The notes below the pieces were generated by a model. That model saw only the letters and a list, made by a program, of their open reading frames with translations, was not told the DNA's origin and ran no database searches. Source: a virus (Duplodnaviria; Caudoviricetes). Taken from it: a stretch of 52,346 nt of DNA. The position numbers and the translations under genes are program-made. Shown in pieces: positions 8,245 to 52,100 of this stretch (positions are counted from its first letter, which is position 1; each line of letters begins with the position of its first letter). The stretch lies in IMG/VR virus record IMGVR_UViG_3300044708_000075, positions 1-52,346 of that record; one strand, given 5' to 3'.

Positions 8245-8542
8245 CCCCGAAACATTAGCTCAGCGCTGGGGTTGCTCTGGCGAACTAGTTCGGCAAATGT
8301 GCCGGCGGGGCGAGCTCGGCTATTTCCGCTTGGGCAAGCTCATTCGGATACCCGCCAATGAAGTCGAGCGCCTAGAGTGCCAGAATACCGCCTTGTGTGG
8401 CACCGAGACCAATGGAGTCTCGCCTACACAGGACCGCGAGGCCGCGTTCGAGTCGCGACTGGAGCGGCTGACCGGGGAATCGCCGAAGCTCGCGCTAGTG
8501 CAATCTGGCGCACCCGCTCCAGGCCAAAGTCGGAGAGGGTAG
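8225..8542 (+). CDS. xis: Excisionase (winged HTH)
   Basis: FSPETLAQRWGCS..VRQMCRRGEL..FRLGKLIRIP..EVERLE, directly upstream of integrase. Confidence 0.8.
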   Translation: MLAKPFSPETLAQRWGCSGELVRQMCRRGELGYFRLGKLIRIPANEVERLECQNTALCGTETNGVSPTQDREAAFESRLERLTGESPKLALVQSGAPAPGQSRRG

Positions 8543-9339
8543 CCGACCTATGGCAACCCTACGTCGCCGACCGGGCGATGACCAAGCAGGCCAAAGCCAG
8601 GTTCGCGTCCCTGTGGAAAACGCTGGAACCGCATTTCGGCTACAAGCTCGGCAAGGCGATCAGCAAGGCCGACTGTCGCGACTATGCGGCCATGCGGAAG
8701 CGGGCGGGCAAGTCGAACTCAACGGTCAAGACCGAACTCGAGGCGCTCAGAGCATGCCTCAGATGGCACTACGGGAAGGAAGCGCCGCAGATCCCGGCAC
8801 CGCCCCCATCGAAGCCGAGGGACCGGTTCCTGACCAAAGAGCAACGGGATCGGCTGTTGTCGGCGATCGACACGCCTCACGTCAAGCTGTTCGCGATCCT
8901 CGCCTTCACGACAGGAGCAAGGATGGGCGCGATCCTCGATCTGACCTGGGACCGCGTGACGGCGGAAACGATCGACTTCATGCCCGCCGGGCGCGACCAG
9001 ACGAACAAGCGCCGCACCGTGGTTCCGTTGAACGAACAGGCGAAGAAGGCGCTGGCGGAAGCGCGCCCAGCTGCGCTGACCGATTACGTGATCGAGTACG
9101 GTGGGAAGCCGGTCAAGAGCGTGAAGAAGGCCATCGCGGCTGCATCACGGCGCGCGGGGATCAAATGCTCGCCCCACGACTTCCGGCGATCGGCGGCGAG
9201 GTGGATGGCGGAAGCGGACGTACCGATGGAGCGCATCGCGCAGTTCCTGGGCCACACCTCGACCCGCATTACCTACGAGACCTACGCCCGCTTTTCACCC
9301 CGGTTCATGGCGGACGCGGCGGCGGCTTTGGACTGGTAG
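8377..9339 (+). CDS. int: Tyrosine recombinase / phage integrase
   Basis: TGAR (R), HDFRR (HxxR), LGH..YETYA (H,Y); attP follows immediately. Confidence 0.95.
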   Translation: MPEYRLVWHRDQWSLAYTGPRGRVRVATGAADRGIAEARASAIWRTRSRPKSERVADLWQPYVADRAMTKQAKARFASLWKTLEPHFGYKLGKAISKADCRDYAAMRKRAGKSNSTVKTELEALRACLRWHYGKEAPQIPAPPPSKPRDRFLTKEQRDRLLSAIDTPHVKLFAILAFTTGARMGAILDLTWDRVTAETIDFMPAGRDQTNKRRTVVPLNEQAKKALAEARPAALTDYVIEYGGKPVKSVKKAIAAASRRAGIKCSPHDFRRSAARWMAEADVPMERIAQFLGHTSTRITYETYARFSPRFMADAAAALDW

Positions 9340-28346: not shown

Positions 28347-28380
28347 AAATTACCCGCTGGCCCTGCGGCGCTGTAGGTTC
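28347..28380 (-). promoter_or_regulatory. Late promoter motif (leaderless geometry)
   Basis: GAACCTACA-N19-TAATTT-N6-ATG(28340). Confidence 0.75.
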
Positions 28381-31097
28381 CCTGCGGCTCGGCGCGGAGG
28401 TCCGAACTCGCCCCCAGCTTGGCGATCGCTGAGCGTTCCTGCCGCTTGGCGCGGCGTGTTGGAGCCGGAAGCCGAACGCTCGTCTTCGGTGCCATGCCTG
28501 CGCCGCTCGCCAGGCACGTCGAGCGCGATATGGCCGCGGATCGACCATCCGCCCTGCCCGACGACCGATACGCTTGCCTCGGTGATCGACTGGCCAGCAC
28601 CGACCATGACGCCGAAGCCAGCCGAGATCGCGGCTCCGGTGGCGTAGACCGAGGGCGCGGGGTTCAGTGCGCCAGCGCCGGCGGCGCTCATCGTGCTTGG
28701 CCGGACCTGCGCGGCCGTTTCCGCGAGGCCGCCACTGCAGGAAGCCGAAACCGCCGCAGGCTTGACCAAGGCGCCGACGTCGGAAAGCGTTCCCGATCCG
28801 GAGGCATTGAGGGCGGCCGCGGCGATTGTCCGCCCAGTCGGAGTTAGCGAACCAAGCCCGCCCGCCGTGAGAATACCGATCGAATAGCCGCTGATCTGCC
28901 CGTCGATCGTAAGCAATGCCGCACCGGAACCAGCGAACGCGCCCGTCGCCGTGACCGACCTGGCGAAGGCGACGCTTCCCGCGCCGTGCCCAGCAAACGT
29001 GCCAGAAGCCACCACCAGCGCGCTCGCGGCGAAAACGGCTGTGCCGGAGCCGGAAAGTGCTGATGGCGCTAGAATCGCGCCTGAGGCGGCGAGAGAGGCA
29101 ATTCCAGCACTGCCGAAGTCCGCCGGCGTGACTGCTCGGCCCTGCTCGGCAAGAGCGCCGACTCCGGCCAGCGACAGCGAAACCTCATGGATGGCGAGTG
29201 ATGTGCCAGCGAAATCGGACGATCCGGCGCTTGAGAAGGCGGCAGTCGTGAACGCAGTCTCGTCGCCAGCCCAGGAGGAGAGGCCGACGCCCGAGAAGAC
29301 GCCTTGCGCTATCGCCAGTGCGTCGAAGGCGAGCGAGCCAGCCCCGGCACCGGAAAGCGCGGCTTCAACGGTCTCTTCGCCAGCGGCGGCAAGATTGCCC
29401 GCGCCACTTGCGGATAGGGCCCCGGAGGCCGTGTTGCTGCCCTGCTCGCCGACTGCGGCCAGGTCGCCCGAGCCGCTGGCGGAGAAAACGCCTTCAGTGG
29501 TCTCGGCACCCGTGCTGGCGAAATCGCCGATCCCCGATACCGAAAGCGCCGCAGGTTCAAGCGCACGGCCCTCGGCGGCGAGATCAGAGGCACCCGAGGA
29601 GGACATGACCGCCGTCTCGATCGCTTGCCCGTCATTCGCAGCAGTTCCGATACCGGCCGCCGAGAAGGCAGCCGCTGCAGTGGACCCGCCGATCGCGCCG
29701 AACGTGCCGATGCCCGCGCCCGATAGGGCTGTGGTCGCAATCTCGACTGCGGTGAGCGAGGTCGCTGCAATAGCGCTGAGCGATAGAGATGCAGTCGCAA
29801 TGGCTTGGCCGGTTTCGGCAACCGCTGCGGCCCCGCTGATCGAAAGCGTGGCTCCAGCGGTTGCCTGACCGACGGGCGATGCGGTCGCGATCGCACTCGC
29901 CGAAAGCACCGCTGCGGCGACGGCTTGCCCGGCGATGCTAGTTGATACCGTACCCGAGCCAGCCAGAACCCCAGCGGCGATCGAGCCGCCAGCAGCCGTC
30001 AATGCACCAGCGCCAGCGCCGGAAAGGGCCGCAGCTTCAATACCGCGCCCGACTTCTAGCAGAGCGCCCACGCCAGAACCGGAGAAGCTCGCCTGCGCCG
30101 TGGATTGGCCAGCCTCGGCGAGCGCTCCTGCCCCAGCGCCCGACAGCGTCGCCGCTGCAGTGCTTTGCCCGACCGGTGAAGTCGCCCCAACGCCAGCCCC
30201 CGATAGCGTCGTGGTGGCCAGCATCAATGCGGTTACGGAGAGCGCGCCGATCGCCGCCCCTGTGAACACGCCGTTGACGAGGTAGCCGCCATTGCCGGAG
30301 AGCGAACCAGCCCCGCTTCCTGAGAAAGCCGCGGGCTGAATTCCGGCACCCGCCAACGACGTCGCTCCAGCGCCGCTCAGCGCCATGCTCTGCTGCGAGA
30401 TCGAGCCGCCAGCGATGGAGGCCGATCCTGTGCCGGAAGCAGAGAAGTCGCTGCCGACCGGATTTTCGTAAACCGCGACCGTGAAGCACACCCATTGCTC
30501 GGTCGCACTGGTGAACGTGCCAGGGTCTTCGGAACTGACCGTTGCCGACCTGTCGCCAGAATATGTCGAGGCTCCGTTGGAGCCGCCGCCAACAGAACTC
30601 AGTGCGTTAGTGTAGCCACTCGGTGGGGCAGTCGCCTGCGTGGTGCTGTCGCCGCAGCGAGCCGCGAGCAAGACGCAAGCCTTGGAACCGACCGATAGAG
30701 TCAGATTCGGCGGGTCGGAATTTGTCGACGATCCGTTGGTTTTGGCAGCTTCAACGGCGAGAGACGTGCCGCTGAGCTGATAGAAGGTTCCAGAATATTG
30801 CTCGCTGGCGGTCGACGAGATGTTGAGCGTCGGCATCCCCGACGAGCCGGAACTGCCGGCGAGGCATTTGAACAGCGCGCCCGCAACAGAGGTGCTGTTC
30901 GCATCCTGATCAACCTTCGCCCAACCCGCATCTGAACCGGCGCCTACGGTAAGAGTCGGATTGCCGTCAGCCGCAATGAAGGCGATGAACAGGTCGCCTG
31001 CATTCCAAGATGTGAAGCTGGGCGCCGGACTCCACGATGTCGCGTTTGAGGTCGGGCCGGTGATGGCGCCACGGCGTTGGACAACCGCGACGGCCAT
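28350..31097 (-). CDS. 915-aa Ser/Thr/Gly/Ala-rich repeat protein, probable virion fiber
   Basis: About 210-aa N-terminal beta-rich domain (AGDLFIAFIAADG), then roughly 30 degenerate 20-aa repeats such as AAATLSGAGAGALAEAGQST. Confidence 0.75.
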   Translation of the reverse strand: MAVAVVQRRGAITGPTSNATSWSPAPSFTSWNAGDLFIAFIAADGNPTLTVGAGSDAGWAKVDQDANSTSVAGALFKCLAGSSGSSGMPTLNISSTASEQYSGTFYQLSGTSLAVEAAKTNGSSTNSDPPNLTLSVGSKACVLLAARCGDSTTQATAPPSGYTNALSSVGGGSNGASTYSGDRSATVSSEDPGTFTSATEQWVCFTVAVYENPVGSDFSASGTGSASIAGGSISQQSMALSGAGATSLAGAGIQPAAFSGSGAGSLSGNGGYLVNGVFTGAAIGALSVTALMLATTTLSGAGVGATSPVGQSTAAATLSGAGAGALAEAGQSTAQASFSGSGVGALLEVGRGIEAAALSGAGAGALTAAGGSIAAGVLAGSGTVSTSIAGQAVAAAVLSASAIATASPVGQATAGATLSISGAAAVAETGQAIATASLSLSAIAATSLTAVEIATTALSGAGIGTFGAIGGSTAAAAFSAAGIGTAANDGQAIETAVMSSSGASDLAAEGRALEPAALSVSGIGDFASTGAETTEGVFSASGSGDLAAVGEQGSNTASGALSASGAGNLAAAGEETVEAALSGAGAGSLAFDALAIAQGVFSGVGLSSWAGDETAFTTAAFSSAGSSDFAGTSLAIHEVSLSLAGVGALAEQGRAVTPADFGSAGIASLAASGAILAPSALSGSGTAVFAASALVVASGTFAGHGAGSVAFARSVTATGAFAGSGAALLTIDGQISGYSIGILTAGGLGSLTPTGRTIAAAALNASGSGTLSDVGALVKPAAVSASCSGGLAETAAQVRPSTMSAAGAGALNPAPSVYATGAAISAGFGVMVGAGQSITEASVSVVGQGGWSIRGHIALDVPGERRRHGTEDERSASGSNTPRQAAGTLSDRQAGGEFGPPRRAAGNLQRRRASG

Positions 31098-31100
31098 TTA

Positions 31101-31565
31101 CTAGCCGCCCATGATATCGGCGTTGAAAATCTGATCCGGGGCGACACCGAGAATGTCGATGTAGTCGCCGCTATCCAACGTGAGGCGCGTATCGGTGATG
31201 CCGTCATTGTTGGGGTCGACCGCGCTGACGAACAGGTGCGCTGTGCCAGTCCAGTTGGTCAGCACCTCGCCGTCGTAGAGCGTGCCGTTGCCGGCGCCGA
31301 AGTCGAACACGTCCGAATAGGTATGCGAGCCAGTGTCGATCATGATCTTGTCTTCGCCGGGCGTGAAGCCGGCGACCTGATCGTGGCCGTCGCCAGTGCG
31401 GAAGGCGACCGTATCGCGCGCCGTGTCGTTGCCGTCAGTGACGTCGATGAAGTCGTCACCGTGCGCGCCCTCGAGCCAATCTGCGCCGCGGTGGCCGGTA
31501 ATCGTATCGTTGCCCGAGGTGCCGAGCAGATAGTCGGCTTTGTTCGTGCCGTTGATGTTGGCCAT
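31101..31565 (-). CDS. RTX/hemolysin-type Ca-binding repeat protein
   Basis: GTNKADYLL GTSGNDTIT GHRGADWLE GAHGDDFID, then GDGHDQVAGF.PGEDKI; RBS aggaaagg. Confidence 0.8.
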   Translation of the reverse strand: MANINGTNKADYLLGTSGNDTITGHRGADWLEGAHGDDFIDVTDGNDTARDTVAFRTGDGHDQVAGFTPGEDKIMIDTGSHTYSDVFDFGAGNGTLYDGEVLTNWTGTAHLFVSAVDPNNDGITDTRLTLDSGDYIDILGVAPDQIFNADIMGG

Positions 31566-32293: not shown

Positions 32294-32728
32294 CTAGTCC
32301 AGCGTGACGGTGCTGGCCGTCGTGAGCCGCGGAATGACGCCGGCGCTCGGGATCGAGATATTCGGCGAGATCGCACCGTTGACGATGACGTCGGTCGCGC
32401 CGCCGCCTGATTTACCCAGCTGCCCGTGGGTGATCGTGGTTCCGGACGCGCCGCTCGAGGGGAAGTCGACATTGGCCGCAAAAGCTGTGGATCCGCCTGA
32501 CGGCGCCGAGAAGCCGCTGGTCGTGCGGACGATATTCTGGCGGGCATAGTTGGTATAGGCGCTCTCGCTGGTCGACATGGTGCCGGTATCGCCTGGATCG
32601 GCGGTCGCGAGGGCGGCGACGATGTTGGTTTCAGGCGATGAGGTCGCGTTGATCGCGTAGTTCGTCCAGGTCGTGGCGTTGAAGATGAGGGCGAGGATCG
32701 CATTCTCGGCGACATTGCTGAACGACAT
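32294..32728 (-). CDS. Small structural / fiber-associated protein
   Basis: SNVAENAIL.LIF..LATADPG..E..YTNYARQ..FP..ITH. Confidence 0.75.
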   Translation of the reverse strand: MSFSNVAENAILALIFNATTWTNYAINATSSPETNIVAALATADPGDTGTMSTSESAYTNYARQNIVRTTSGFSAPSGGSTAFAANVDFPSSGASGTTITHGQLGKSGGGATDVIVNGAISPNISIPSAGVIPRLTTASTVTLD

Positions 32729-32795: not shown

Positions 32796-33689
32796 TTACA
32801 CGCCGCAGAGCATGAGGTTGTCGAAGCCGAGCATCTTCGCGAGCGATTGCGCGTGCGGCATGTTGTCCGCGATCGCATCAACCTGCCCCGGCCAATGCTG
32901 CGCTGTCTGTGTGAAGGCGATGACGCCGTCGACCTGATGCCCGTTGAGCGCCGCCTGCGCTTCCTTCCACACCGACGGGCGCCGGCCGAGGACGAGTCCG
33001 GTCCGCCCGCCGTCGAGCCGATAGTGCTGGCTCACCCACGGATGCCCGATCGCGTCCCACGGCTTCACGTTGCCGGGGAAGAACATGATCTTGCCTTCCG
33101 GAGCCGCGCCCCAGCGGACCACCCCGTCACCGGGCCCGAAAGTGCGTTCGCCGCGGCCGAGTACGTGCCCGATCCACGCCTGGTCTGAGCCGACGTAGCG
33201 CGCGCTCGCGATCTCGGCCTCCTGCGGGGTGAAGCGCTCGTAGACCTGAGGCCTGGCCCCCGCCGTCATCATGATCATTGAGCCGTTGTAGACATAGCGG
33301 TGGTTCTGCTGAGACGGGCTGCAGATGACGAAATCGTTCGGCAGGCTCAGCAAGGCGTCGATGTTGGCCCCGATCACGCAGTCGAGGTCCATGGCGACGA
33401 AGCGCTTGCCGAATATCCGCCCGGCATCGCGGCGGAACATGGAGATGCGGCGGTAGCAATTCGGCTTTCCCTTGCGCCAGCGAGCCGTCTCGAGGCCGAC
33501 GAATTCGCCCGGCGGCTTGATGATGCGGATCGAAGGGTCGATGCCGTCCGGCGTGTCGGTGACGCAGGAGAGGCGGATGTCGAGCGTGCAATGGCGCCGC
33601 ACCATGGCTGCCCAAATGTTGACGTGGGTGGCCGTGAACGCCGTTCTTCCCCCGACCTGGTTCCACAGCCAGGAGATGACGTGGATCAC
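32796..33689 (-). CDS. GT-A glycosyltransferase (GT8-like motifs) with short C-terminal extra domain
   Basis: CVTD, FVAMDLDCVI (DxD), YNGSMIMM, GSDQAWI, FFPGNVKPW. Confidence 0.8.
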   Translation of the reverse strand: MIHVISWLWNQVGGRTAFTATHVNIWAAMVRRHCTLDIRLSCVTDTPDGIDPSIRIIKPPGEFVGLETARWRKGKPNCYRRISMFRRDAGRIFGKRFVAMDLDCVIGANIDALLSLPNDFVICSPSQQNHRYVYNGSMIMMTAGARPQVYERFTPQEAEIASARYVGSDQAWIGHVLGRGERTFGPGDGVVRWGAAPEGKIMFFPGNVKPWDAIGHPWVSQHYRLDGGRTGLVLGRRPSVWKEAQAALNGHQVDGVIAFTQTAQHWPGQVDAIADNMPHAQSLAKMLGFDNLMLCGV

Positions 33690-34420
33690 AGCACGCGCTC
33701 CCACTCGAATTGCAACACCTTGACCTCGTGCTCCTCGCCGCGCTCCCATTTGGCGCGCATGATCGCCTTCTTCGCGCCCTCGTCGCGACCTTCCTTGCGC
33801 GGGAGCGTGGTCGTCGACGCATCTGAAACAAGCCCGCGCCAGTAGCGGGTCAGGGCAACGCGCTTGAGGTGCCCGCGCCGGCCGACGTGGAACGCGCGCT
33901 GCCGGAACATCCCGTCGGTGCCATAGACACCGCAGAAATCCTCGTCGTAGCCGCCGATCTTCCAGTAGAGCTCGCGGGTCAGGACAAAACTGTTCGGATG
34001 CGGCTTGGGCCGCCCGTCCTTCCCGATCGTCGGCTCGCCAGTATCAGCTTCGACCCGGTGCAGCGTGTAGACCGTCTCGTCGTCCATCTTGTCGAGACGG
34101 CGCAGCAGCGCGTCGGCGGCATCAGCGGTCAGCAGGTGATCCATGTCGGTCAGGAGCAGCCAGCCCTCATCGGCGACGTGCGCGCCGAGGTTGCGGGCCG
34201 CGTGCTGGTGCCAGGGCCGGTCCTCGGTCACGCGGTAGATCGAGATCGGGAGCAGGTTTGCGGGGCACGGGACGTCGATCGCGGGCGCGGTAGGCGAGCC
34301 GTCGTCGATGATGATCACCTTGAACTGTTCGCGGATGCGCTCGGGCCAGTCGTGCCACGTCCGATAGTGGATCCGCAGCATCTCGCTGTTCATATAGTAC
34401 GGGAGAACCATCGTGATCAT
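33686..34420 (-). CDS. GT-A glycosyltransferase (GT2/GT7-like)
   Basis: IIIDDGSP, ARNLG, LLTDMDH (DxD), IGGYDEDFCG.YGTD. Confidence 0.85.
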   Translation of the reverse strand: MITMVLPYYMNSEMLRIHYRTWHDWPERIREQFKVIIIDDGSPTAPAIDVPCPANLLPISIYRVTEDRPWHQHAARNLGAHVADEGWLLLTDMDHLLTADAADALLRRLDKMDDETVYTLHRVEADTGEPTIGKDGRPKPHPNSFVLTRELYWKIGGYDEDFCGVYGTDGMFRQRAFHVGRRGHLKRVALTRYWRGLVSDASTTTLPRKEGRDEGAKKAIMRAKWERGEEHEVKVLQFEWERVL

Positions 34421-35262
34421 GCGAGCGCCTGCGTCCTGGTGCACCAAACGGGAATTCCGACCTCGCGCGCGATGATCGCGCCCTGCTTGGGGCAGCTTTC
34501 GATGAAGAATTCGACGCCGAGGTCTTTGACGATCCGAGCCTTCCACCCGCCGCGGCCGCCGGCGAACTTCATCGCGCTCATGCGTTCGGCCTTCGAGTGA
34601 AACGGCGTCATGTGCAGCGCTTCGAACTGGATCCCATGCCGGGCCAGCCATTCCTCAGTCTCGCCGCGGTACTTCTCGAGCCTTCCCGTCACGATGTGGC
34701 CGATCGGGCGTTGCGGGATGAACAGCGGCTCGACGTCGCGCAGGAAGGTTACATAGCGCGGGCCATCGTCGTTCTCGGCCTTGGTATTGTCGCGGCAGAG
34801 CACGCCGTCGAAGTCGAAGCCCCAGCGCGGGAGCCGCCGATGCTTCCACAGATTCCACCCGAAGGCGCGCGGGCCTCGACAATCTTCAAATACGATGTCG
34901 ACGATCTGCGACGGATCCTCGACCTGATACGGCCCATAGACGCAGAGCCGCGTTATTTTGGCACTTTTGGGCAACATGGCAGCGGCGCGGGCCATCGCTG
35001 ATCCCTTATTGACGGTATCGTCGACCAGCAGGACGCGCTGCCCAGGGGCCTCCAGCTTTCCGCTTCGGCCATAGATGACGCCTTTGGAATACCCGATTGG
35101 ATCGGCGAGAGGCATTTGCAGATGTGTGGCGAGGATGCTCGCAGGCAGCATCCCGCTTCTTGGAATGCCGACGATAACATCGAAGGATGAGCGGTCGAGG
35201 CGATGCAGATTGGCTGCGACCGCGCGCGCCATGTCGGCGACCGAGCGGACGTTAAGTGACAC
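34417..35262 (-). CDS. Phosphoribosyltransferase plus HAD phosphatase; putative dual-domain ribofuranosyltransferase
   Basis: VIVGIPRSG, PRPP loop VLLVDDTVNKGSAM; HAD motif FDFDGVLC, VTGRLEKYR, K..FFIES. Confidence 0.8.
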   Translation of the reverse strand: MSLNVRSVADMARAVAANLHRLDRSSFDVIVGIPRSGMLPASILATHLQMPLADPIGYSKGVIYGRSGKLEAPGQRVLLVDDTVNKGSAMARAAAMLPKSAKITRLCVYGPYQVEDPSQIVDIVFEDCRGPRAFGWNLWKHRRLPRWGFDFDGVLCRDNTKAENDDGPRYVTFLRDVEPLFIPQRPIGHIVTGRLEKYRGETEEWLARHGIQFEALHMTPFHSKAERMSAMKFAGGRGGWKARIVKDLGVEFFIESCPKQGAIIAREVGIPVWCTRTQALA

Positions 35263-35881
35263 GTCCGCCCTTCCTCATATTTTCTCCGGCCCAGAGCGGC
35301 TGCAAGTTCGTGAAGTGGCAAGCCTGGGCCAGTTCCGCGGGGTCCGATAGATCGAACGAAGCGAGCGGCCTTATGTGATCAAGGTGCCAAGCGCCCCAAT
35401 TGGACCACGCCATCCCCTGAGCAAACTTGCCTTCGATGTAGGATTTCGCATCTTCAATGGAGCATCCGAGCAGCTTAATTGCCGATCCGGCCTTCCCACT
35501 CTTGCGCAGCGCATTAGAAATCCGGCCTCTTATCGTGTGCCGAAGCCGAAAGATTGGGTCGCTTTCGCGTCGGTGCTTGGCGCGCTGCACCACACCGGCG
35601 ATGATGCGGTCGCGATTTTTCTGATACCGGCGTTGGCGTTGGTCACGGTAGCGCTCGCGCCGAATTTCGCGGATTGCGGAGGGCGGTGGACGCAGCCGAG
35701 CCTTCACGCGCTTGCAATCAACGCAATGGCTGTCGCTGACCATTCGCTCGGACCAGTGGCCATGAGTACAGGGTCGGCCGAGATAATACCGCGTAAGGCC
35801 AGCATCGCGCGCCTCTATGCGCCCAATAACCAGCAGAAAAGGCTGGCTTCGCGGCTTACCGGAAAGATGCCCGTTACGCAT
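35252..35881 (-). CDS. HNH-type endonuclease
   Basis: YYLGRPCTHGH..CVDC; LLGCS..GMAWSNWG.WHLDHIRPL.SFDL..HFTNLQPLWA.EN..K. Confidence 0.85.
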   Translation of the reverse strand: MRNGHLSGKPRSQPFLLVIGRIEARDAGLTRYYLGRPCTHGHWSERMVSDSHCVDCKRVKARLRPPPSAIREIRRERYRDQRQRRYQKNRDRIIAGVVQRAKHRRESDPIFRLRHTIRGRISNALRKSGKAGSAIKLLGCSIEDAKSYIEGKFAQGMAWSNWGAWHLDHIRPLASFDLSDPAELAQACHFTNLQPLWAGENMRKGGRVT

Positions 35882-35920: not shown

Positions 35921-36472
35921 TTAGCACCCTTTCCTCCCCCGCAGCCCCATGTTCACCGCCCGATGCGTCTTCGCACCGCGCGGCACCTTGGCCTCTTCCA
36001 GATCGACCAGCCCAGCCTTCGCGAAACACTCCCGCATGTACCGCGGCGTCAGGATCGCACGGTGCATCCAATGCGTTCCCGAACCTTTGCGGTTATAATT
36101 AAGCAACCGCCCCGTACCCCACAGGAACGGGTGATCGCGGTGGAGATCGCGGCGCCAAGCCCCGGGCCGCGGACCGGCGCCGCCATCCTCCCAATCGACC
36201 AGCTGGCGCATCATTCGCGCGCCGTCGACGGTGTGAACCTCCAAAGTGCCGCCTGCCTTCAGGATCCGCGCCCATTCGGCGATCACGCCCTCGACCTCGT
36301 ACCATTCGACGTGCTCGATGCAGTGCGATGAATAGACCACGTCGAAGGTCGCGTCAGGAAACGGCGGCTTGCGCGCATCGCCTACATGGTCGGTGATCGG
36401 TGTCGGAACGACGTTCAACGTCTCGAACCCGGGCAGGCGCTCGTGCCCCGGCCCGATCTCCAGGCACCTCAC
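35921..36472 (-). CDS. Class I SAM-dependent methyltransferase
   Basis: LEIGPG, GDA..PF.DATFDVVYSSHCIEH, EWARILKAGG; no DPPY/NPPY or PC motif of DNA MTases. Confidence 0.85.
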   Translation of the reverse strand: MRCLEIGPGHERLPGFETLNVVPTPITDHVGDARKPPFPDATFDVVYSSHCIEHVEWYEVEGVIAEWARILKAGGTLEVHTVDGARMMRQLVDWEDGGAGPRPGAWRRDLHRDHPFLWGTGRLLNYNRKGSGTHWMHRAILTPRYMRECFAKAGLVDLEEAKVPRGAKTHRAVNMGLRGRKGC

Positions 36473-36813
36473 TTTTTGGCTTTCGCTCGCCGCTTCCTGC
36501 GCCGCTTGGCCGGAGCTTTCGGCTTGGGCTGTTCTTCGCGTTCGTCGGAAAAACTTCCCTGCCCGTCCGCCGATCTCGGGAGACTGCCCCCGGGCTTGCC
36601 GTCGCCGTCATGATCGAAGCGAGAGATCAATTCCTCAGGAACCGCGGGAAGCTCGGCGTCGGGCTCCTCGACCTCGAAGAACGGCTGCTTGCGCACGCGC
36701 GAGATTTCGAGAGGAACGACTGATCGCGTGGCTCCGGGCGGGACAAAGACGAGGCCGCCCAAGGTGTAAATACCCTGAGCGGCCTTCGACGTGTTTTTAA
36801 TCCGGTACTCCAC
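36469..36813 (-). CDS. Hypothetical protein downstream of MCP
   Basis: RBS gagg; FDHDGDGKPGGS motif and basic tail. Confidence 0.7.
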   Translation of the reverse strand: MEYRIKNTSKAAQGIYTLGGLVFVPPGATRSVVPLEISRVRKQPFFEVEEPDAELPAVPEELISRFDHDGDGKPGGSLPRSADGQGSFSDEREEQPKPKAPAKRRRKRRAKAKK

Positions 36814-36825
36814 CGGCTACCTCAC

Positions 36826-37794
36826 TTAGCTGCCGGATGCGGACGTGATCTCGTCGACGTAGGCCATTGCGCCCGGCAGGCGGATCTCGGTGCCGCCGGT
36901 GCGGGCAATGACGCCCTGCTGGTAGTGCATGAGGCCGACACGATGCACCGGAAGAACGCGCCGCGGCATCGGGAGGTGGAATTTCAGCACTTCCGGAGCC
37001 TTGCGGTACACGATCATGCGGCCGCCGCCGTCCTGGGAAGCCGTCGCGAGCGCGCGCAACGGCGCGATGTCGAGCGGCAGGCCAGTTTCGGCGGTGTAGA
37101 TGTTGTTCTTCCGCATGTAATCGAGCGCCGACATGGTGCCGCCCGAGTCGGTGAGGCGGCGGGTCGCGGCGAGCCGGAACGCCTGCGGAGGCAAGCGGAC
37201 CGTATCGGCCTGCTCGACCTCGCTCGAATTGGCGCGAACCGCTTCGAGACCGGCGTTGACGTCGGCTACCATCTCGTCGGCATCCTTGCCGTACCAGAAG
37301 GTCGAGCCGCTGACGGTCGCAGCATCGAAACGCTGGACGTTGCCGTCATTGGCGAGGCCGGTCGAATTGACCTCGTCGGATCCTGCGATCGCGATGTTGT
37401 AGAGCAGCCGCTCGACATCGTCGGCAGCGCCCATCGCGTCGTCGTTCACGACGTTGATGTTGTAGAGCTGGCCCTGCTCGGTCTCTTCGAGGCTCCATTC
37501 CCAGCCGGCGCCGACCATGAAGAAGTCATGAGTGAGCAGCGAGCGGGTGGTCTTGCCGAAGGGGATGTCCTTCGCCTTGCCGGAGATGATCTTGGCCTGG
37601 CCGCTGTGGTCGGCAATGCGGAACTGCGTGCCGATCGACCAGGGGTTGCCCTCGGTGACCACCGGAATGCTGTCCGCGTAGTTGTACGAGGGATAACGGC
37701 GCTGGTAGATCGCCGCCTCGATGTTGCGACCCTGCGCGGTGACGAAGGCGTAAGCAGCCTGCTCGTCAGAGATAAACGTCGGCATGGCAGTCAT
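36826..37794 (-). CDS. Major capsid protein (DUF2184-type, HK97 fold)
   Basis: RNIEAAIY..Y..IPV, GWEWSLEE, GLAND, GRMIVY, RTGGTEIRLP.A.AYVD. Confidence 0.88.
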   Translation of the reverse strand: MTAMPTFISDEQAAYAFVTAQGRNIEAAIYQRRYPSYNYADSIPVVTEGNPWSIGTQFRIADHSGQAKIISGKAKDIPFGKTTRSLLTHDFFMVGAGWEWSLEETEQGQLYNINVVNDDAMGAADDVERLLYNIAIAGSDEVNSTGLANDGNVQRFDAATVSGSTFWYGKDADEMVADVNAGLEAVRANSSEVEQADTVRLPPQAFRLAATRRLTDSGGTMSALDYMRKNNIYTAETGLPLDIAPLRALATASQDGGGRMIVYRKAPEVLKFHLPMPRRVLPVHRVGLMHYQQGVIARTGGTEIRLPGAMAYVDEITSASGS

Positions 37795-47692: not shown

Positions 47693-48020
47693 CGCTGAGA
47701 GGCAGCCGCGGCTGGTACAGCGTGTCGAAGCTCGAAGCAGCGCACACGCAGCTAAGGCACAGCCGCCGGAGCTCGCGCAGCTGGTCGCGGCTGATCGCGA
47801 AGCTCAGCGCCGATTCGTTCGCGACATTCTCGACCACATCGAGCAGCGCCCAGGCTGGGGTGCAGGCGACCTGCTTCGTCGCGATCGCACGGTCGCGCAT
47901 CAGCAGCAGGCTCGCGCGCAGTTCCAGTTCCTCGCCATCGCAGAGGGGACGCATTGCTTTTACGACCGAGAAGAAATCTTCGCGCCGCAAAGTCCTCGGA
48001 AGGATGGCAGGCTCGTTCAT
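47667..48020 (-). CDS. Hypothetical protein
   Basis: ATGA overlap with the HNH stop. Confidence 0.55.
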   Translation of the reverse strand: MNEPAILPRTLRREDFFSVVKAMRPLCDGEELELRASLLLMRDRAIATKQVACTPAWALLDVVENVANESALSFAISRDQLRELRRLCLSCVCAASSFDTLYQPRLPLSDGEADARG

Positions 48021-48742
48021 AGACCAGCCTCGAACATGTCGGGCCAATGGCGATTCCGCTTGGCGATGTTCACATCGGACGGAATGATTTGCAGATTCGC
48101 TTCGCAGTGAAGACCGCAGACAGTATCGCCTTGGAGCGGGACGATGTGGTCCACATGGAAGTCAGGGCCGAGCAAACGCGCGGTTCTATAGATCGCCTCG
48201 ATTTCTATGCGGCTGGCCCAGGACGGAAGGGCGCGAAGTTTAGCGGCCCTATGATTTTCCTTGTGAACCTTTGCCCGATCGGGATTCTCGCGCGCCCATG
48301 CGGTAGCGCGTTCTACGGCTCGTTTTTGTTTCGCGGGGATGTGCTTGTTGCGATGGTGCCGCAGCCGACTCTTTTCGCCTCTGATCTCCCTGTTCGCCGC
48401 ATCGTAGCGCTGCGAAATGGCTCTCGCCTCCTCGGGTTTTTTCCTGCGCCATTGGGCCGCCCATTCGCGGCCGCATTCTCGGCAACGGGATTGACGCCCA
48501 TCCACTTTCGCCTTGTTGGGCGGGAAGTCGGAGAGCGGCTTTTCAATCTTGCAGTTGGTGCAAGCCTTCGCTTCAGGTAGAGGCCGCGAACGACGCGCGG
48601 CGTTCCAGCATCCTACGCACAGCCCGGTCGAACCAGCCCTGCCTAAAGACCTTTTCTCGAGCGTGCTCTTGCTGAGAGGGTTGCCGCACGTGGCGCAGTT
48701 ATCGCTCGGCACATGCACGGGGAGAGGCGAGGCGTCGTTCAT
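48017..48742 (-). CDS. HNH endonuclease with N-terminal Cys clusters
   Basis: C..C pairs, PSWA, FHVDHIVPLQG..VCGLHCEANLQII..N..K.N. Confidence 0.9.
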   Translation of the reverse strand: MNDASPLPVHVPSDNCATCGNPLSKSTLEKRSLGRAGSTGLCVGCWNAARRSRPLPEAKACTNCKIEKPLSDFPPNKAKVDGRQSRCRECGREWAAQWRRKKPEEARAISQRYDAANREIRGEKSRLRHHRNKHIPAKQKRAVERATAWARENPDRAKVHKENHRAAKLRALPSWASRIEIEAIYRTARLLGPDFHVDHIVPLQGDTVCGLHCEANLQIIPSDVNIAKRNRHWPDMFEAGL

Positions 48743-51086: not shown

Positions 51087-51301
51087 GCCGCCGCTTCTTT
51101 CGACGCTGGCGGGACGAACTGGCGCCACTCAAGCAGCTTTCCTTTGAGCGCCGCGGCCTCAATGATCTTCGGCCAATACTGCGGCGGGATGTTATTCCGG
51201 TTGCGCCATTGACGCACCGTGACGCCGAGTTCGCCGATGTCGGTGGCCATCGTCTCGGCGTTGTCGTCCCAGACGGCGTAAATGGGTTTGAGGTGTGACA
51301 T
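51083..51301 (-). CDS. cro: Cro-like repressor
   Basis: MATDIG..TVRQWRNRNNIPPQYW..I; divergent from cI. Confidence 0.8.
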   Translation of the reverse strand: MSHLKPIYAVWDDNAETMATDIGELGVTVRQWRNRNNIPPQYWPKIIEAAALKGKLLEWRQFVPPASKEAAA

Positions 51302-51307
51302 GACGGC

Positions 51308-51364
51308 CATGATACACACCGTATCGGGCACGTCAATACCCGCCGTATCGCTACAGGCTGTATC
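51308..51364. promoter_or_regulatory. OR-like region: three 15-bp operators and the cro promoter
   Basis: GATAC-N5-GTATC 51311, AATAC-N5-GTATC 51335, GCTAC-N5-GTATC 51350; minus strand TTGACG-N16-TATCAT-N7-ATG. Confidence 0.8.
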
Positions 51365-51374
51365 CCCGTGGCTT

Positions 51375-52100
51375 ATGGGAACGCTCAAGTCAGGTCGGCT
51401 GAAGGCAGCAAGAGAGAAGGCGAGGTTCGCGTCGGCCGCGGAAGCCGCCCGCGCTTTTGGGTGGAAAGAATCCGCCTACCGCCACCATGAGAACGGAACG
51501 CGCGACTTCGGACCCGATGCAGCAAAACGCTACGGGCGGGCGTTCAAAGTTAAGCCAGGGTGGTTGCTCGGCCTGGATAACATTGACGGCGGGCCACCGC
51601 CGCAGTCGCAAGAGCAGGATGACTTTCTCGTGGTCAACGGCAGCATAGAGGCCGGGGCGTGGAGGGTTACTGAACAATGGAACGACGAGCGGTCCTTCGT
51701 CATCGAAGGGATGCCGTCTCCTATCCCGGGCGCCAAGCGCTTTGGACTAGTCGTGGTCGGGCGATCGATGGACGAGTTCTATGAACCGGGCACGGTGCTT
51801 GATTGCATCTCAATCTTCGACATGCCCGTGAAGCCGGTCACCGGCGATCACGTTATCGTCGAGTGCATTAGGTCCGACGGCCTACGCGAGCTCACGGTCA
51901 AAGAGTATCGCGAGGAGGACGGCCGCTACTGGCTCGTTCCGAAATCGACGAAGCCGGAATTCAAGCCGGTGGAGTACGCCGGCCCCGATGAAGAACATGC
52001 CAACGACTCGGAGGTCAGGGTGATCGCTTTCGTGATCGCCGCCTTCCCGCCGCGGACGCTCGATCTGCTTCGGCGCATGGGGATGATTCGCCCAGCGTAA
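51375..52100 (+). CDS. cI: CI-like repressor (XRE HTH plus S24 autoproteolytic domain)
   Basis: RLKAAR..AAEAARAFG..YRHHENGTR; IEAG, VVGRSM, LTVK. Confidence 0.92.
   Translation: MGTLKSGRLKAAREKARFASAAEAARAFGWKESAYRHHENGTRDFGPDAAKRYGRAFKVKPGWLLGLDNIDGGPPPQSQEQDDFLVVNGSIEAGAWRVTEQWNDERSFVIEGMPSPIPGAKRFGLVVVGRSMDEFYEPGTVLDCISIFDMPVKPVTGDHVIVECIRSDGLRELTVKEYREEDGRYWLVPKSTKPEFKPVEYAGPDEEHANDSEVRVIAFVIAAFPPRTLDLLRRMGMIRPA

What the first reader, a model, noticed from the sequence alone, without database searches (positions are those of the whole stretch)
34417..35262. Phage-encoded dual-domain ribofuranosyltransferase-like enzyme
Seen: type I PRTase (GIPRSG; VLLVDDTVNKG) fused to a HAD phosphatase (DFDGVLC; T; K; IES). 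Established: ribofuranose in bacterial O-antigens and capsules is installed by dual-domain enzymes that transfer ribose-5-phosphate from PRPP to a glycan and then dephosphorylate it. Inference: flanked by GTs, this is a glycan ribosylating enzyme, not nucleotide salvage; PRPP as donor removes any need for sugar-nucleotide genes.
Basis: partly seen in the sequence, partly recalled or inferred. Interest (0 to 1): 0.8.

Follow-up and report, generated by a model that had tools for sequence, protein, structure and literature searches.

The report
Phage-borne glycan ribofuranosyltransferase (WbaM-like)
A temperate phage carries a small two-part enzyme that most likely takes ribose-phosphate from the metabolite PRPP, attaches it to a sugar chain and then clips off the phosphate; it belongs to a four-gene sugar-decorating cassette, and it is not yet known whether the cassette decorates the virus particle or the host surface.

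Summary
ORF 34417-35262 (-) encodes 281 aa: an N-terminal type I PRTase (GIPRSG, VLLVDD) and a C-terminal capless HAD phosphatase (DFDGV, T192, K241, E255).

The reading as a glycan ribosylating enzyme is supported.
- It is 34-35% identical over both domains to the only phosphoribosyltransferase gene in the E. coli O183 and O105 O-antigen clusters. Both O antigens contain D-ribofuranose. A review states that the O183 gene (wbaM) was confirmed to add Ribf to GlcA.
- Cellular relatives sit in Wzx/Wzy polysaccharide loci and are fused to glycosyltransferases, flippases or methyltransferases, never to nucleotide-metabolism domains.

It is not a member of the biochemically characterised PRP-gPRT ribofuranosyltransferases. 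The domain order is reversed, the PRTase is a minimal purine-PRTase-like core, and the HAD resembles the T4 PNKP phosphatase.

In the phage it lies in a conserved cassette: methyltransferase, PRT/HAD, GT2 and a GT8-like transferase. In 11 of 12 loci this cassette is embedded in head-gene modules. A homing HNH gene is inserted into it in this window.

The acceptor is unresolved: virion proteins or host glycan. PRPP use and phosphatase activity are inferred, not shown.

The parts
34417..35262 (-). PRTase-HAD fusion protein (281 aa), WbaM-like putative ribofuranosyltransferase
   Evidence: ORF. Pfam PF00156. Model. 34-35% identity over residues 3-274 to the E. coli O183 and O105 cluster proteins.
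34843..35262 (-). N-terminal type I PRTase domain (about residues 1-140). PPi loop GIPRSG at 35152-35169. PRPP motif VLLVDDTVNKG at 35002-35034. Family-specific P131-R132-x-F134-x-W136-N137.
34420..34842 (-). C-terminal capless HAD phosphatase domain (about residues 141-281). Motif I D150-F-D152-G-V at 34795-34815. Motif II T192. Motif III K241. Motif IV E255 (IES at 34495-34503).
35921..36472 (-). Class I SAM methyltransferase, first gene of the cassette. Its start overlaps the stop of the preceding backbone gene (36469-36813).
   Evidence: PF08241 at E 4.4e-12. Present next to PRT/HAD in 9 of 9 related viral loci and in L091 and L092. 56% identical over 91 aa (E 3e-31) to the MTase domain fused to a PRT-HAD in P0132.
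35252..35881 (-). HNH/endonuclease VII-like gene inserted between the methyltransferase and PRT/HAD. It is not part of the cassette elsewhere.
   Evidence: phrog_1035 at E 1.7e-14. No tblastn hit in 0 of 9 related loci, where the MTase abuts PRT/HAD. Its stop overlaps the GTG start of PRT/HAD.
33686..34421 (-). GT2-family (GT-A, DxD) glycosyltransferase, 244 aa from ATG 34421. ATGA start/stop overlap with PRT/HAD.
   Evidence: PF10111 at E 7.5e-10 and PF00535 at E 1.2e-7. The overlap is read. Conserved in 9 of 9 loci. The 77 residues upstream in the listed ORF are an out-of-frame overlap with the HAD domain.
32796..33689 (-). Second glycosyltransferase (297 aa), GT-A fold of the retaining GT8/GT6 type, with no Pfam family.
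   Evidence: phrog_1962. 410 homologues, none named. Model pLDDT 93.8. Foldseek hits to GlyE, LgtC, LARGE1 and glycogenin at E about 1e-6 to 1e-5, TM 0.45-0.5. Conserved in 9 of 9 loci.
36826..37794 (-). Major capsid protein (context). The cassette follows it in the same operon after one small gene (36469-36813).
   Evidence: PF09950 at E 1.2e-63. phrog_264.

Best explanation
The gene encodes a compact two-step ribofuranosyltransferase of the WbaM type.

Proposed mechanism
- Step 1 (inferred from fold, conserved residues and family context): the N-terminal type I PRTase domain binds Mg-PRPP through the GIPRSG loop and the vicinal D81-D82. It transfers ribose-5-phosphate with inversion to a hydroxyl of a sugar acceptor, giving a beta-Ribf-5-P cap.
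- Step 2 (inferred): the C-terminal capless HAD domain removes the 5-phosphate. D150 is the nucleophile and D152 the acid/base. T192, K241 and E255 complete the site. The product is a beta-ribofuranoside.

The cassette
- The enzyme works inside a conserved, translationally coupled phage cassette: SAM methyltransferase, PRT/HAD, GT2 and a GT8-like GT.
- This cassette would build a short, probably O-methylated, ribofuranose-containing glycan. The two GTs would use host sugar nucleotides and the ribose would come from host PRPP.

Shown here
- Domain architecture and conservation of catalytic residues.
- Homology to the O183 and O105 O-antigen genes.
- Association of the family with polysaccharide genes.
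- Conservation and placement of the cassette.

Not shown
- PRPP use, phosphatase activity, the linkage, and the acceptor.

My odds
- About 0.75 that the chemistry is glycan ribofuranosylation.
- Given that chemistry, about 0.45 that the acceptor is a virion (head) protein glycan, because the cassette is co-transcribed with capsid genes.
- About 0.35 that it is a host envelope polysaccharide.
- About 0.2 that it is something else.
For: 1. Homology to O-antigen genes
- The protein shows full-length two-domain homology to the sole phosphoribosyltransferase gene in the E. coli O183 cluster (L100:9935-10918, between manB and wzx; 34% identity, E 6e-54; cluster).
- The same holds for the O105 cluster (L098:9927-10910; 35% identity, E 2e-55; clusters).
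- The review PMC7685785 (passages seen) lists D-Ribf in only nine serogroups, including O105 and O183.
- The review says O183 differs from O169 by a beta-D-Ribf-(1->4)-GlcA side branch. It also says that wbaM, 'a putative phosphoribosyltransferase gene', was confirmed for that transfer.
- By blastn, 13 of 5426 E. coli genomes carry such a gene. The 3 loci I opened are 2 O105 and 1 O183.

2. Fusions
- Among the 150 best of 2194 cluster representatives, 29 are 450 aa or longer, and I scanned 20 of them.
- 13 carry GT domains (GT2, GT4, RgpF, TOD1/MUCI70, GT28).
- 1 carries a Wzx-type flippase.
- 4 carry only a methyltransferase.
- 2 are tandem PRT-HAD duplications.
- 0 carry a nucleotide-metabolism domain.

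3. Neighbours
- I examined 114 ORFs flanking the homologue in 19 cellular loci.
- 19 match Glyco_trans_1_4, 12 match GT2, 8 match Polysacc_synt (Wzx) and 5 match Wzy_C.
- Paracoccus plasmid pMARC4 places the homologue between an LPS-biosynthesis (Wzx-like) gene and two GTs.

4. Catalytic residues of both domains are kept in 103 of 104 family members.

5. The Asp of the DDxxD[TS]G motif is seen in all five purine PRTases aligned. It is Asp in only 3 of 104 family members.

6. The HAD has a 36-46 residue motif I-II spacing. It best matches phosphatases that act on sugar-phosphate ends of polymers (T4 Pnkp, Pnkp1).

7. Cassette conservation and placement
- The cassette is conserved in 9 of 9 related viral loci.
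- The methyltransferase subfamily is also found fused to PRT-HAD.
- Start/stop overlaps join the genes.
- 11 of 12 cassette-bearing loci have it inside head-gene modules of at least three different head-gene types.
Against: - No biochemical datum exists for this protein. In what I could read, none exists for any member of this family either.
- The WbaM assignment rests on one sentence of a review. The primary paper was not held.
- NCBI's automatic GO term for homologues is 'nucleoside metabolic process'.
- One cellular context is not a polysaccharide locus: on the R. phaseoli plasmid the gene is next to a caspase-family gene, although a GT lies nearby.
- The characterised ribofuranosyltransferases did not appear in any sequence or fold list, so no direct link to proven PRPP-dependent glycan transferases was found.
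- Only 2 of the 9 Ribf-containing E. coli serogroups were found to carry a homologue by DNA search.
- The acceptor is unknown.
Confidence: 0.75

Rival explanations
1. The chemistry is the same, but the target is a host envelope polysaccharide (EPS, capsule, O-unit or glycolipid glycan). On this view the cassette is a lysogenic-conversion moron. It adds a methylated Ribf-containing side branch to lipid-linked repeat units on the cytoplasmic face, changing the receptor or antigen of the lysogen.
For: - All cellular relatives sit in Wzx/Wzy-type loci and so act on lipid-linked glycans.
- The phage is temperate, with an integrase at 8377-9339 and a CI-like repressor at 51282-52100.
- The cassette is accessory. 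Phages with a 69-70% identical capsid gene (L093, L094) lack it, and L095 has a smaller cassette at the same site.
- It occurs at several insertion points, and in L008 it sits beside a ParB-like gene.
- A precedent is recalled, not checked here: prophage-encoded cytoplasmic TarP modifies S. aureus wall teichoic acid.
Against: - In this window the cassette has no room for its own promoter. There are 12 nt between the capsid gene and the next gene, whose stop overlaps the methyltransferase start. No promoter or terminator signal rises above shuffled controls. It should therefore be silent in a lysogen.
- 11 of 12 loci place it inside head modules.
- The cassette contains no flippase, GT-C or membrane protein.
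- Close relatives are in Sphingomonadaceae genomes. From general knowledge, this group lacks classical O antigen.
Confidence: 0.27
2. The protein is a nucleobase/nucleoside enzyme. The PRTase would make a nucleoside 5'-monophosphate from a free base and PRPP. The HAD would act as a 5'-nucleotidase releasing the nucleoside, for salvage or for an unusual nucleoside.
For: - The nearest solved structures and profiles are purine PRTases.
- Weak NCBIfam hits go to XPRT, OPRT and APRT models.
- GO annotation of homologues is 'nucleoside metabolic process'.
Against: - All 7 NCBIfam hits are far below their cut-offs (best 34.4 bits against 138).
- The motif Asp shared by the five aligned purine PRTases is absent (3 of 104).
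- 0 of 20 fusions and none of the top 25 neighbour families are nucleotide-metabolism domains.
- The E. coli homologues lie inside O-antigen clusters of Ribf-containing serogroups.
Confidence: 0.05
3. The enzyme makes a lipid-linked ribose donor. It would phosphoribosylate undecaprenyl phosphate and dephosphorylate it to undP-Ribf, which another transferase then uses. This is what C. youngae ORF15 does with a UbiA-type domain.
For: - A PRP-type HAD fused to a PRPP-dependent transferase does exactly this in C. youngae O1 (PMC11127046, passages).
Against: - The protein has no membrane domain (model).
- No GT-C or flippase is in the phage cassette or in the O183 and O105 clusters beyond wzx and wzy.
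- The O183 Ribf is beta-linked, as expected for direct inverting transfer from alpha-PRPP.
Confidence: 0.05
4. Phosphoribosylation is the end product, or the acceptor is not a glycan (protein side chain, DNA or RNA end). The HAD would then serve another substrate, for example a 3'-phosphate as in PNKP.
For: - The HAD domain's best structural matches are nucleic-acid end phosphatases (T4 Pnkp, Pnkp1).
- phrog_415 'polynucleotide kinase' matches residues 190-221.
Against: - There is no kinase or ligase partner.
- The fusions and neighbours are glycan enzymes.
- The domain pair is invariably linked in the family, with full-length matches.
- The O183 and O105 context points to neutral Ribf in the product.
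Confidence: 0.05

Closest known systems
WbaM of E. coli O183 / Shigella boydii type 10, and the O105 cluster homologue (Wzx/Wzy-dependent O antigens)
   Same: - The two-domain architecture and length class are the same (327 aa against 281 aa).
- Identity is 34-35% over residues 3-274.
- All motifs are shared: GIPRSGM, LLVDDS, PRxFEWN, DxDGVLCxD, NDDG, VTxRLEKYR, K, FIES.
- Both are associated with GTs.
- The function reported for wbaM is addition of a beta-D-Ribf side-branch residue (PMC7685785 passages).
   Different: - The phage protein lacks the roughly 45-residue C-terminal tail of most cellular members (median family length 320 aa).
- It sits in a phage head-gene operon with its own MTase and two GTs, not in a chromosomal O-antigen cluster.
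- The acceptor is unknown.
- I identified the O183 gene as wbaM by position and annotation only.
Prototypical dual-domain ribofuranosyltransferases (PRP-gPRT): K. pneumoniae ORF5(O4)/ORF7(O7), H. influenzae Bcs3 CrpP-CriT, C. jejuni Cj1432 M+C domains, Salmonella STM0726, Thermobacillus composti structure
   Same: - The proposed logic is the same. A PRPP-dependent transfer of Ribf-5-P to a glycan is followed by HAD-catalysed 5-dephosphorylation.
- Both have a PRTase-like Rossmann core and use a DxD-type HAD nucleophile.
   Different: - The domain order is opposite: the known enzymes have the HAD at the N-terminus and the gPRT at the C-terminus.
- Their gPRT is 330-450 aa with three helical bundles. 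The ribose-binding acids are split between two loops (D680/E818 in CriT). Here the domain is about 140 aa with a vicinal DD.
- Their PRP has an alpha-helical cap of about 100 aa. Here the spacer is about 40 residues.
- They gave no sequence or fold match in the lists returned.
GpT/XGPRT-type purine phosphoribosyltransferases (S. solfataricus HGXPRT 4z1o, P. horikoshii 1vdm, H. pylori 7kl6, E. coli/Y. pestis XGPRT)
   Same: - They share the PPi loop, the acidic DD, the 5-phosphate loop Gly and the terminal F-x-W motif.
   Different: - The third Asp of DDxxD[TS]G is not conserved.
- There is a family-specific invariant-like R132 and N137.
- The domain is always fused to a HAD.
- The genomic context is polysaccharide, not nucleotide, metabolism.
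T4 polynucleotide kinase 3'-phosphatase domain / Pnkp1 (capless DxDxT HAD)
   Same: - They have the same capless architecture, which suits polymer-end substrates.
   Different: - There is no kinase domain.
- Motif IV is F-I-E-S with an invariant Glu.
- There is an invariant C156, R194 and R199.
Virion glycosylation of mycobacteriophages (Che8, Rita)
   Same: - These are temperate phages that encode glycosyltransferases and carry glycans on major capsid proteins. I saw this only as cited in PMC11256854 (passage). The primary paper was not held.
   Different: - Those GT genes lie near the 3' end of the genome, not in the head operon.
- No PRPP-dependent enzyme is reported in the passage I saw.
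- Virion glycosylation is not shown for this phage.

Membership tests
WbaM-type PRTase-HAD ribofuranosyltransferase family | Full-length homology (both domains, same order) to the phosphoribosyltransferase gene of the E. coli O183 O-antigen cluster | tested here: met
   34% identity, E 6e-54, residues 3-274. The O105 homologue gives 35% identity, E 2e-55.
WbaM-type PRTase-HAD ribofuranosyltransferase family | PRPP-binding elements of type I PRTases (PPi loop, vicinal acidic pair, 5-phosphate loop Gly) | tested here: met
   P34, R35, S36 and G37 in 102-104 of 104 sequences. D81 in 100 (plus E in 4). D82 in 104. G87 in 104.
WbaM-type PRTase-HAD ribofuranosyltransferase family | Complete HAD motifs I-IV | tested here: met
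   D150 in 103, D152 in 104, T/S192 in 104, K241 in 104 and E255 in 104 of 104 sequences.
WbaM-type PRTase-HAD ribofuranosyltransferase family | Genomic or physical linkage to glycan-assembly genes | tested here: met
   The phage gene is flanked by an MTase and two GTs.
WbaM-type PRTase-HAD ribofuranosyltransferase family | Product glycan contains ribofuranose; PRPP is the donor | not testable with these tools
   This needs biochemistry or glycan analysis. It is inferred only from the Ribf content of O183 and O105.
Prototypical PRP-gPRT ribofuranosyltransferases (Kelly et al. family) | N-terminal PRP (HAD) followed by C-terminal gPRT | tested here: not met
   Here the PRTase is residues 1-140 and the HAD is residues 141-281. 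The prototype order is stated in PMC11294581.
Prototypical PRP-gPRT ribofuranosyltransferases (Kelly et al. family) | Large gPRT with helical-bundle subdomains and ribose-binding acids on separate loops | tested here: not met
   The domain is about 140 residues with a vicinal D81-D82 and no helical bundles in the model.
Prototypical PRP-gPRT ribofuranosyltransferases (Kelly et al. family) | HAD with alpha-helical cap domain | tested here: not met
   The motif I-II spacer is 36-46 residues. Only one helix (168-176) lies between the strands. The cap is described.
Prototypical PRP-gPRT ribofuranosyltransferases (Kelly et al. family) | Detectable sequence or fold similarity to solved members (Bcs3, T. 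composti enzyme) | tested here: inconclusive
   They are not among the matches returned. The lists are truncated, so absence is not exclusion.
Purine/pyrimidine salvage type I PRTases | Type I PRTase core fold | tested here: met
   [not shown]
Purine/pyrimidine salvage type I PRTases | Conserved Asp in DDxxD[TS]G (present in all five purine PRTases aligned; its role as catalytic base is recalled from the HGPRT literature) | tested here: not met
   N85 in the window protein. Asp in 3 of 104 family members.
Purine/pyrimidine salvage type I PRTases | Score above the curated cut-off of an NCBIfam equivalog model | tested here: not met
   The best is 34.4 bits against a cut-off of 138 (XPRT). All 7 hits are below their cut-offs.

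The most novel reading that the evidence does not exclude
The cassette glycosylates the phage's own head proteins. The capsid operon co-expresses two GTs, a PRPP-dependent ribofuranosyltransferase and a methyltransferase. Together they coat the virion with a short O-methylated ribofuranose-containing glycan. This would be the first PRPP-dependent virion glycosylation, found in phages of Gram-negative (probably sphingomonad) hosts and spread as a mobile module between unrelated head-gene sets. It would also give the first biochemical handle on a second, compact and independently evolved class of ribofuranosyltransferase.
Probability: 0.35. Interest if true: 0.8.

Novelty: new member of a known kind. 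Interest (0 to 1): 0.6.

Why it matters
Ribofuranose in bacterial glycans had no known donor until PRPP-dependent PRP-gPRT enzymes were described. The protein here belongs to a second family with a different architecture: a minimal purine-PRTase-like core plus a PNKP-like HAD.

How widespread the family is
- At least 572 matching stretches were found in a collection holding one genome per species.
- 2194 cluster representatives match.

What is known about it
- It has a genetic assignment (wbaM) for the Ribf of Wzx/Wzy-made O antigens.
- I found no biochemistry or structure for it.
- Public annotation still files it under 'nucleoside metabolic process'.
- Linking sequence, fold and Ribf-containing serogroups gives a usable marker for ribose in uncharacterised polysaccharide loci.

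Why the phage context adds to this
- A conserved four-gene cassette is repeatedly embedded in head-gene modules of temperate phages.
- It therefore offers a tractable system for two questions. Do phages of Gram-negative hosts glycosylate their virions? Or do they remodel host glycans with a donor (PRPP) that needs no sugar-nucleotide pathway?

Tried and rejected
Direct link to the characterised ribofuranosyltransferases
- phmmer and a family profile against all PDB sequences returned only nucleotide PRTases, PRPP synthetases and Pnkp1.
- Foldseek and VIA-align over 48,161 chains returned the same kinds of proteins.
- Bcs3 and the T. composti enzyme were not listed. The lists are truncated, so this is not an exclusion.

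Cultured phages
- tblastn against 50,697 phage records gave no match.
- BFVD gave only single-domain matches with TMq 0.37 or less.

Own promoter or terminator for the cassette
- The scan found 2 promoter-like sites against 1.3 expected and 6 terminator-like sites against 5.7 expected. None is at the cassette borders.
- This is uninformative for non-E. coli promoters.

Capsid C-termini as a glycosylation hint
- Cassette-bearing close relatives end in ITSASGS. Two cassette-less relatives end in ISDVPS and IADVPA.
- There are too few loci, and they are too closely related, to mean anything.

Other contexts and serogroups
- L011 (an actinobacterial MAG carrying the same four genes) showed only an extra sialyltransferase-like gene and no phage structural hits among the 6 ORFs scanned.
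- Other Ribf-containing E. coli serogroups gave nothing beyond O105 and O183 by blastn at word size 11.

Sources and tools not available
- Senchenkova 2005 and Freeman 2023 are not held.
- Kelly 2022 was not found in the library. From memory its abstract speaks of 'the most abundant' ribofuranosyltransferase family, so it may already mention others. I could not check this.
- Literature searches for a description of this architecture found none.
- Complex prediction was not used, because an enzyme-substrate pair is not a suitable question for it.
Full report
**What is there**

The window is a complete 52,346-bp virus record of a temperate tailed phage.
- Genes found: integrase at 8377-9339, a CI-like repressor at 51282-52100 and an endolysin.
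- Also found: RecT, terminase, portal, tape measure and tail proteins.
- The late genes run on the minus strand.

ORF 34417-35262 (-) encodes 281 aa from a GTG preceded by a GAGGAAGG Shine-Dalgarno-like stretch.
- A database gene call starts 10 codons later (P0001).
- Homologues align from residue 3, and a 281-aa form lies in the same 90% cluster.

- GIPRSG (residues 32-37).
- VLLVDDTVNKG (residues 77-87).
- DFDGVLC (residues 150-156).
- T192, K241 and I-E-S (residues 254-256).

**Domains**

- Pfam PF00156 covers residues 9-97 (E 5.4e-10, above the gathering score).
- All seven NCBIfam salvage-PRTase models hit far below their cut-offs (best 34.4 bits against 138).
- An AlphaFold2 model built on 104 homologues has pLDDT 96.9 and pTM 0.90.

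VIA-align against 48,161 PDB representatives splits the model in two.

Foldseek and a family profile against PDB sequences (4z1o at E 1.3e-12; Pnkp1 at E 2e-5) agree.

The HAD is capless. The motif I-II spacing is 36-46 residues across the family.

**The family**

The two-domain protein is common.
- 680 word-indexed homologues were found.
- 2194 cluster representatives match at E <= 1e-3, and 536 at E <= 1e-30. Nearly all of the 150 listed match over both domains.
- 572 confirmed stretches were found in a one-genome-per-species collection. The taxa include Bacteroidota, Mesorhizobium, Sinorhizobium, Sphingomonas, Caulobacter, Stenotrophomonas, Psychrobacter, planctomycetes, Chloroflexia and a haloarchaeon.

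Nine residues expected for PRPP binding and HAD catalysis are kept together in 103 of 104 aligned members.

Family-specific, nearly invariant residues are D122, P131, R132, F134, W136, N137, C156, D158, N164-D165-D166-G167, R194, E196, Y198, R199 and W205.

**Why glycan, not nucleotide**

1. Fusions. Of the 29 representatives of 450 aa or more among the best 150, I scanned 20.
 - 13 carry glycosyltransferase domains (GT2, GT4, RgpF, TOD1/MUCI70, GT28).
 - 1 carries a Wzx-type flippase.
 - 4 carry only a methyltransferase (FkbM or Methyltransf_11).
 - 2 are tandem duplications.
 - None carries a nucleotide-metabolism domain.

2. Neighbours. I took 3 ORFs on each side in 19 taxonomically spread cellular loci. 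Three of the 22 chosen were dropped because my ORF caller missed the target. Of the 114 ORFs, 19 match Glyco_trans_1_4, 17 match Glycos_transf_1, 12 match GT2, 8 match Polysacc_synt, 7 match Polysacc_synt_3 and 5 match Wzy_C.

3. Plasmid pMARC4 places the gene between a Wzx-like gene and two GTs.

4. The decisive link is to E. coli O-antigen clusters.
 - A blastn search of 5,426 complete E. coli genomes with a Psychrobacter homologue found 11 genomes.
 - Re-searching with the E. coli genes found 13.
 - The three loci I opened lie between galF and gnd. Two are O105 clusters and one is an O183 cluster.
 - In each locus the homologue is the only phosphoribosyltransferase gene and sits next to wzx.
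 - The window protein is 35% identical (E 2e-55) to the O105 protein and 34% identical (E 6e-54) to the O183 protein over residues 3-274, with every motif conserved.
 - The E. coli O-antigen review (PMC7685785, passages only) states that D-Ribf occurs in just nine serogroups: O5, O20, O54, O105, O114, O153, O178, O183 and O185.
 - The review states that no nucleotide-activated ribose or precursor genes were known.
 - It states that O183 differs from O169 by a beta-D-Ribf-(1->4)-D-GlcpA side branch.
 - In L100, seven genes follow galF and then comes the PRT gene. This matches the review's description of seven shared genes followed by wbaM. The identification is therefore by position and annotation.
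 - The primary paper was not held.

**Evidence pointing the other way**

- The family even keeps the terminal F-x-W motif of GpT/XGPRT enzymes.
- However, the Asp of DDxxD[TS]G is present in all five purine PRTases aligned. From memory, this is the catalytic base of 6-oxopurine PRTases. It is N85 here and Asp in only 3 of 104 family members.
- I read the domain as a purine-PRTase-derived core recruited to an O-nucleophile.

**Relation to the characterised ribofuranosyltransferases**

The biochemically proven enzymes are K. pneumoniae ORF5(O4)/ORF7(O7), Bcs3 CrpP-CriT, Cj1432 and STM0726. They differ from this protein in four ways.
- They have an N-terminal capped HAD (PRP) and a C-terminal gPRT.
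- Their gPRT is 330-450 aa with helical bundles.
- In CriT the ribose-binding acids are D680 and E818 on separate loops.
- Here the order is reversed, the PRTase is about 140 aa with a vicinal DD, and the HAD has no cap.

None of those enzymes appeared in my sequence or fold lists. The protein therefore works like them on paper but fails three of their defining features. It belongs instead with WbaM.

In the searchable library I found no biochemical or structural description of this architecture.

**The phage cassette**

All 9 related viral loci keep the same four genes in the same order: Methyltransf_11-type MTase, PRT/HAD, GT2 and a 297-aa GT. Two further fragments keep MTase plus the start of PRT/HAD.

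Gene junctions overlap.
- The MTase start overlaps the stop of the backbone gene 36469-36813, which starts 12 nt after the capsid gene.
- The PRT/HAD stop and the GT2 start share ATGA.
- The GT2 stop and the start of the last GT overlap by 4 nt.

The 209-aa HNH/endonuclease VII-like gene at 35252-35881 is absent from all 9 loci. It is an insertion. A paralogue lies at 48017-48742.

The last GT has no Pfam family. Its model (pLDDT 93.8) has a GT-A fold nearest to the retaining GT8/GT6 enzymes GlyE, LgtC, LARGE1 and glycogenin.

The MTase is 56% identical over 91 residues (E 3e-31) to the MTase domain fused behind a PRT-HAD in P0132. This is a Rosetta-stone hint that methylation and ribosylation act on the same glycan.

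**Where the cassette sits**

Of 12 cassette-bearing loci, 11 have it inside head-morphogenesis modules on the structural strand.
- After a PF09950-type capsid gene: window, L001, L003, L091, L092.
- After a capsid gene only 30-31% identical to that one: L002, L007.
- After a protease-capsid fusion of another type: L004.
- Between that capsid type and the portal: L009.
- After a portal/MuF-like gene and before neck genes: L005, L006.
- Only L008 has it beside a ParB-like gene.

Phages with a 69-70% identical capsid gene (L093, L094) lack the cassette. L095 carries a different MTase plus only the last GT at the same site. The module is therefore mobile and accessory, yet it keeps landing in head operons.

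**Acceptor**

This cannot be settled computationally.
- Co-transcription with capsid genes, the lack of any promoter signal (weak evidence) and the head-module bias favour a lytic-cycle, virion-directed role. A precedent exists in mycobacteriophages Che8 and Rita, seen only as cited in PMC11256854.
- The temperate lifestyle, the accessory distribution and the lipid-linked-glycan role of all cellular relatives favour host glycan remodelling.
- Close relatives (71% identity) are in Rhizorhabdus and Sphingomonas genomes, so the host is probably a sphingomonad.
- I put virion glycans at about 0.45, host glycans at about 0.35 and other acceptors at about 0.2, given the chemistry.

**Verdict**

It is a phage-borne member of the genetically known, biochemically uncharacterised WbaM-type family, not of the PRP-gPRT family.
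- Its novelty is that of a new member of a known kind, in an unusual and conserved phage context.

Noticed in passing
window 35252-35881 (-) and 48017-48742 (-): There are two HNH/endonuclease VII-like genes (both match phrog_1035). The first is inserted inside the glycosylation cassette between the MTase and PRT/HAD and is absent from all 9 related loci. It looks like a homing endonuclease that has replaced the native start region of PRT/HAD, which now uses a GTG start overlapping the HNH stop.
   Followed up: partly
window 28350-31097 (-), 31101-31565 (-), 32294-32728 (-): Three genes lie downstream of the cassette. The first is a gp80-like head/fibre protein (PF23140). The second is a 154-aa protein with RTX calcium-binding repeats. 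The third is a 915-aa Ala/Gly/Ser-rich protein built of degenerate repeats of the LSGAGAGAL type, with no PHROG match. These may be head or tail fibres and could be glycosylation targets.
   Followed up: no
L093, L094, L095 (relatives with 66-70% identical capsid gene): The site after the capsid gene and the small orf114-like gene is a variable hot spot. L093 and L094 have no insert. L095 has a different methyltransferase plus only the GT8-like GT. The window group has the full four-gene cassette.
   Followed up: partly
window 33686-34651 (-): The listed 321-aa ORF is 77 codons too long. Its N-terminal part is an out-of-frame overlap with the HAD domain. It still gives tblastn hits in related loci, but only because the underlying DNA is conserved. 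Many long spurious ORFs of this kind occur in this 63% GC genome.
   Followed up: yes
P0123, P0124 (cluster representatives, 628 and 640 aa): These proteins consist of two tandem PRT-HAD modules. They might add two ribose residues.
   Followed up: no
L096 (Rhizobium phaseoli plasmid pRphaR650d): A 432-aa family member lies next to a caspase-family protein gene and near a GT and a type VI secretion VgrG gene. This is not in an obvious polysaccharide locus.
   Followed up: no
BFVD hits A0A6J5MQJ8, A0A6J5S5M9, A0A6J7WPK9, A0A6J5NAI8, A0A6J5R419: Several proteins of uncultured Caudovirales are named 'Prohead protease' (436-763 aa) and contain a HAD-like domain similar to the C-domain of this enzyme. 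This is an unexplained link between HAD domains and head genes.
   Followed up: no
L011 (actinobacterial MAG contig, 71% GC): The same four genes occur at 35-46% identity but in the order GT2, MTase, PRT/HAD, GT8-like. A sialyltransferase-like gene precedes them. No phage structural genes were found among the 6 flanking ORFs scanned.
   Followed up: partly
L045 (Salinigranum MAG): A haloarchaeal genome carries a 42% identical homologue, so the family crosses the bacteria-archaea divide.
   Followed up: no
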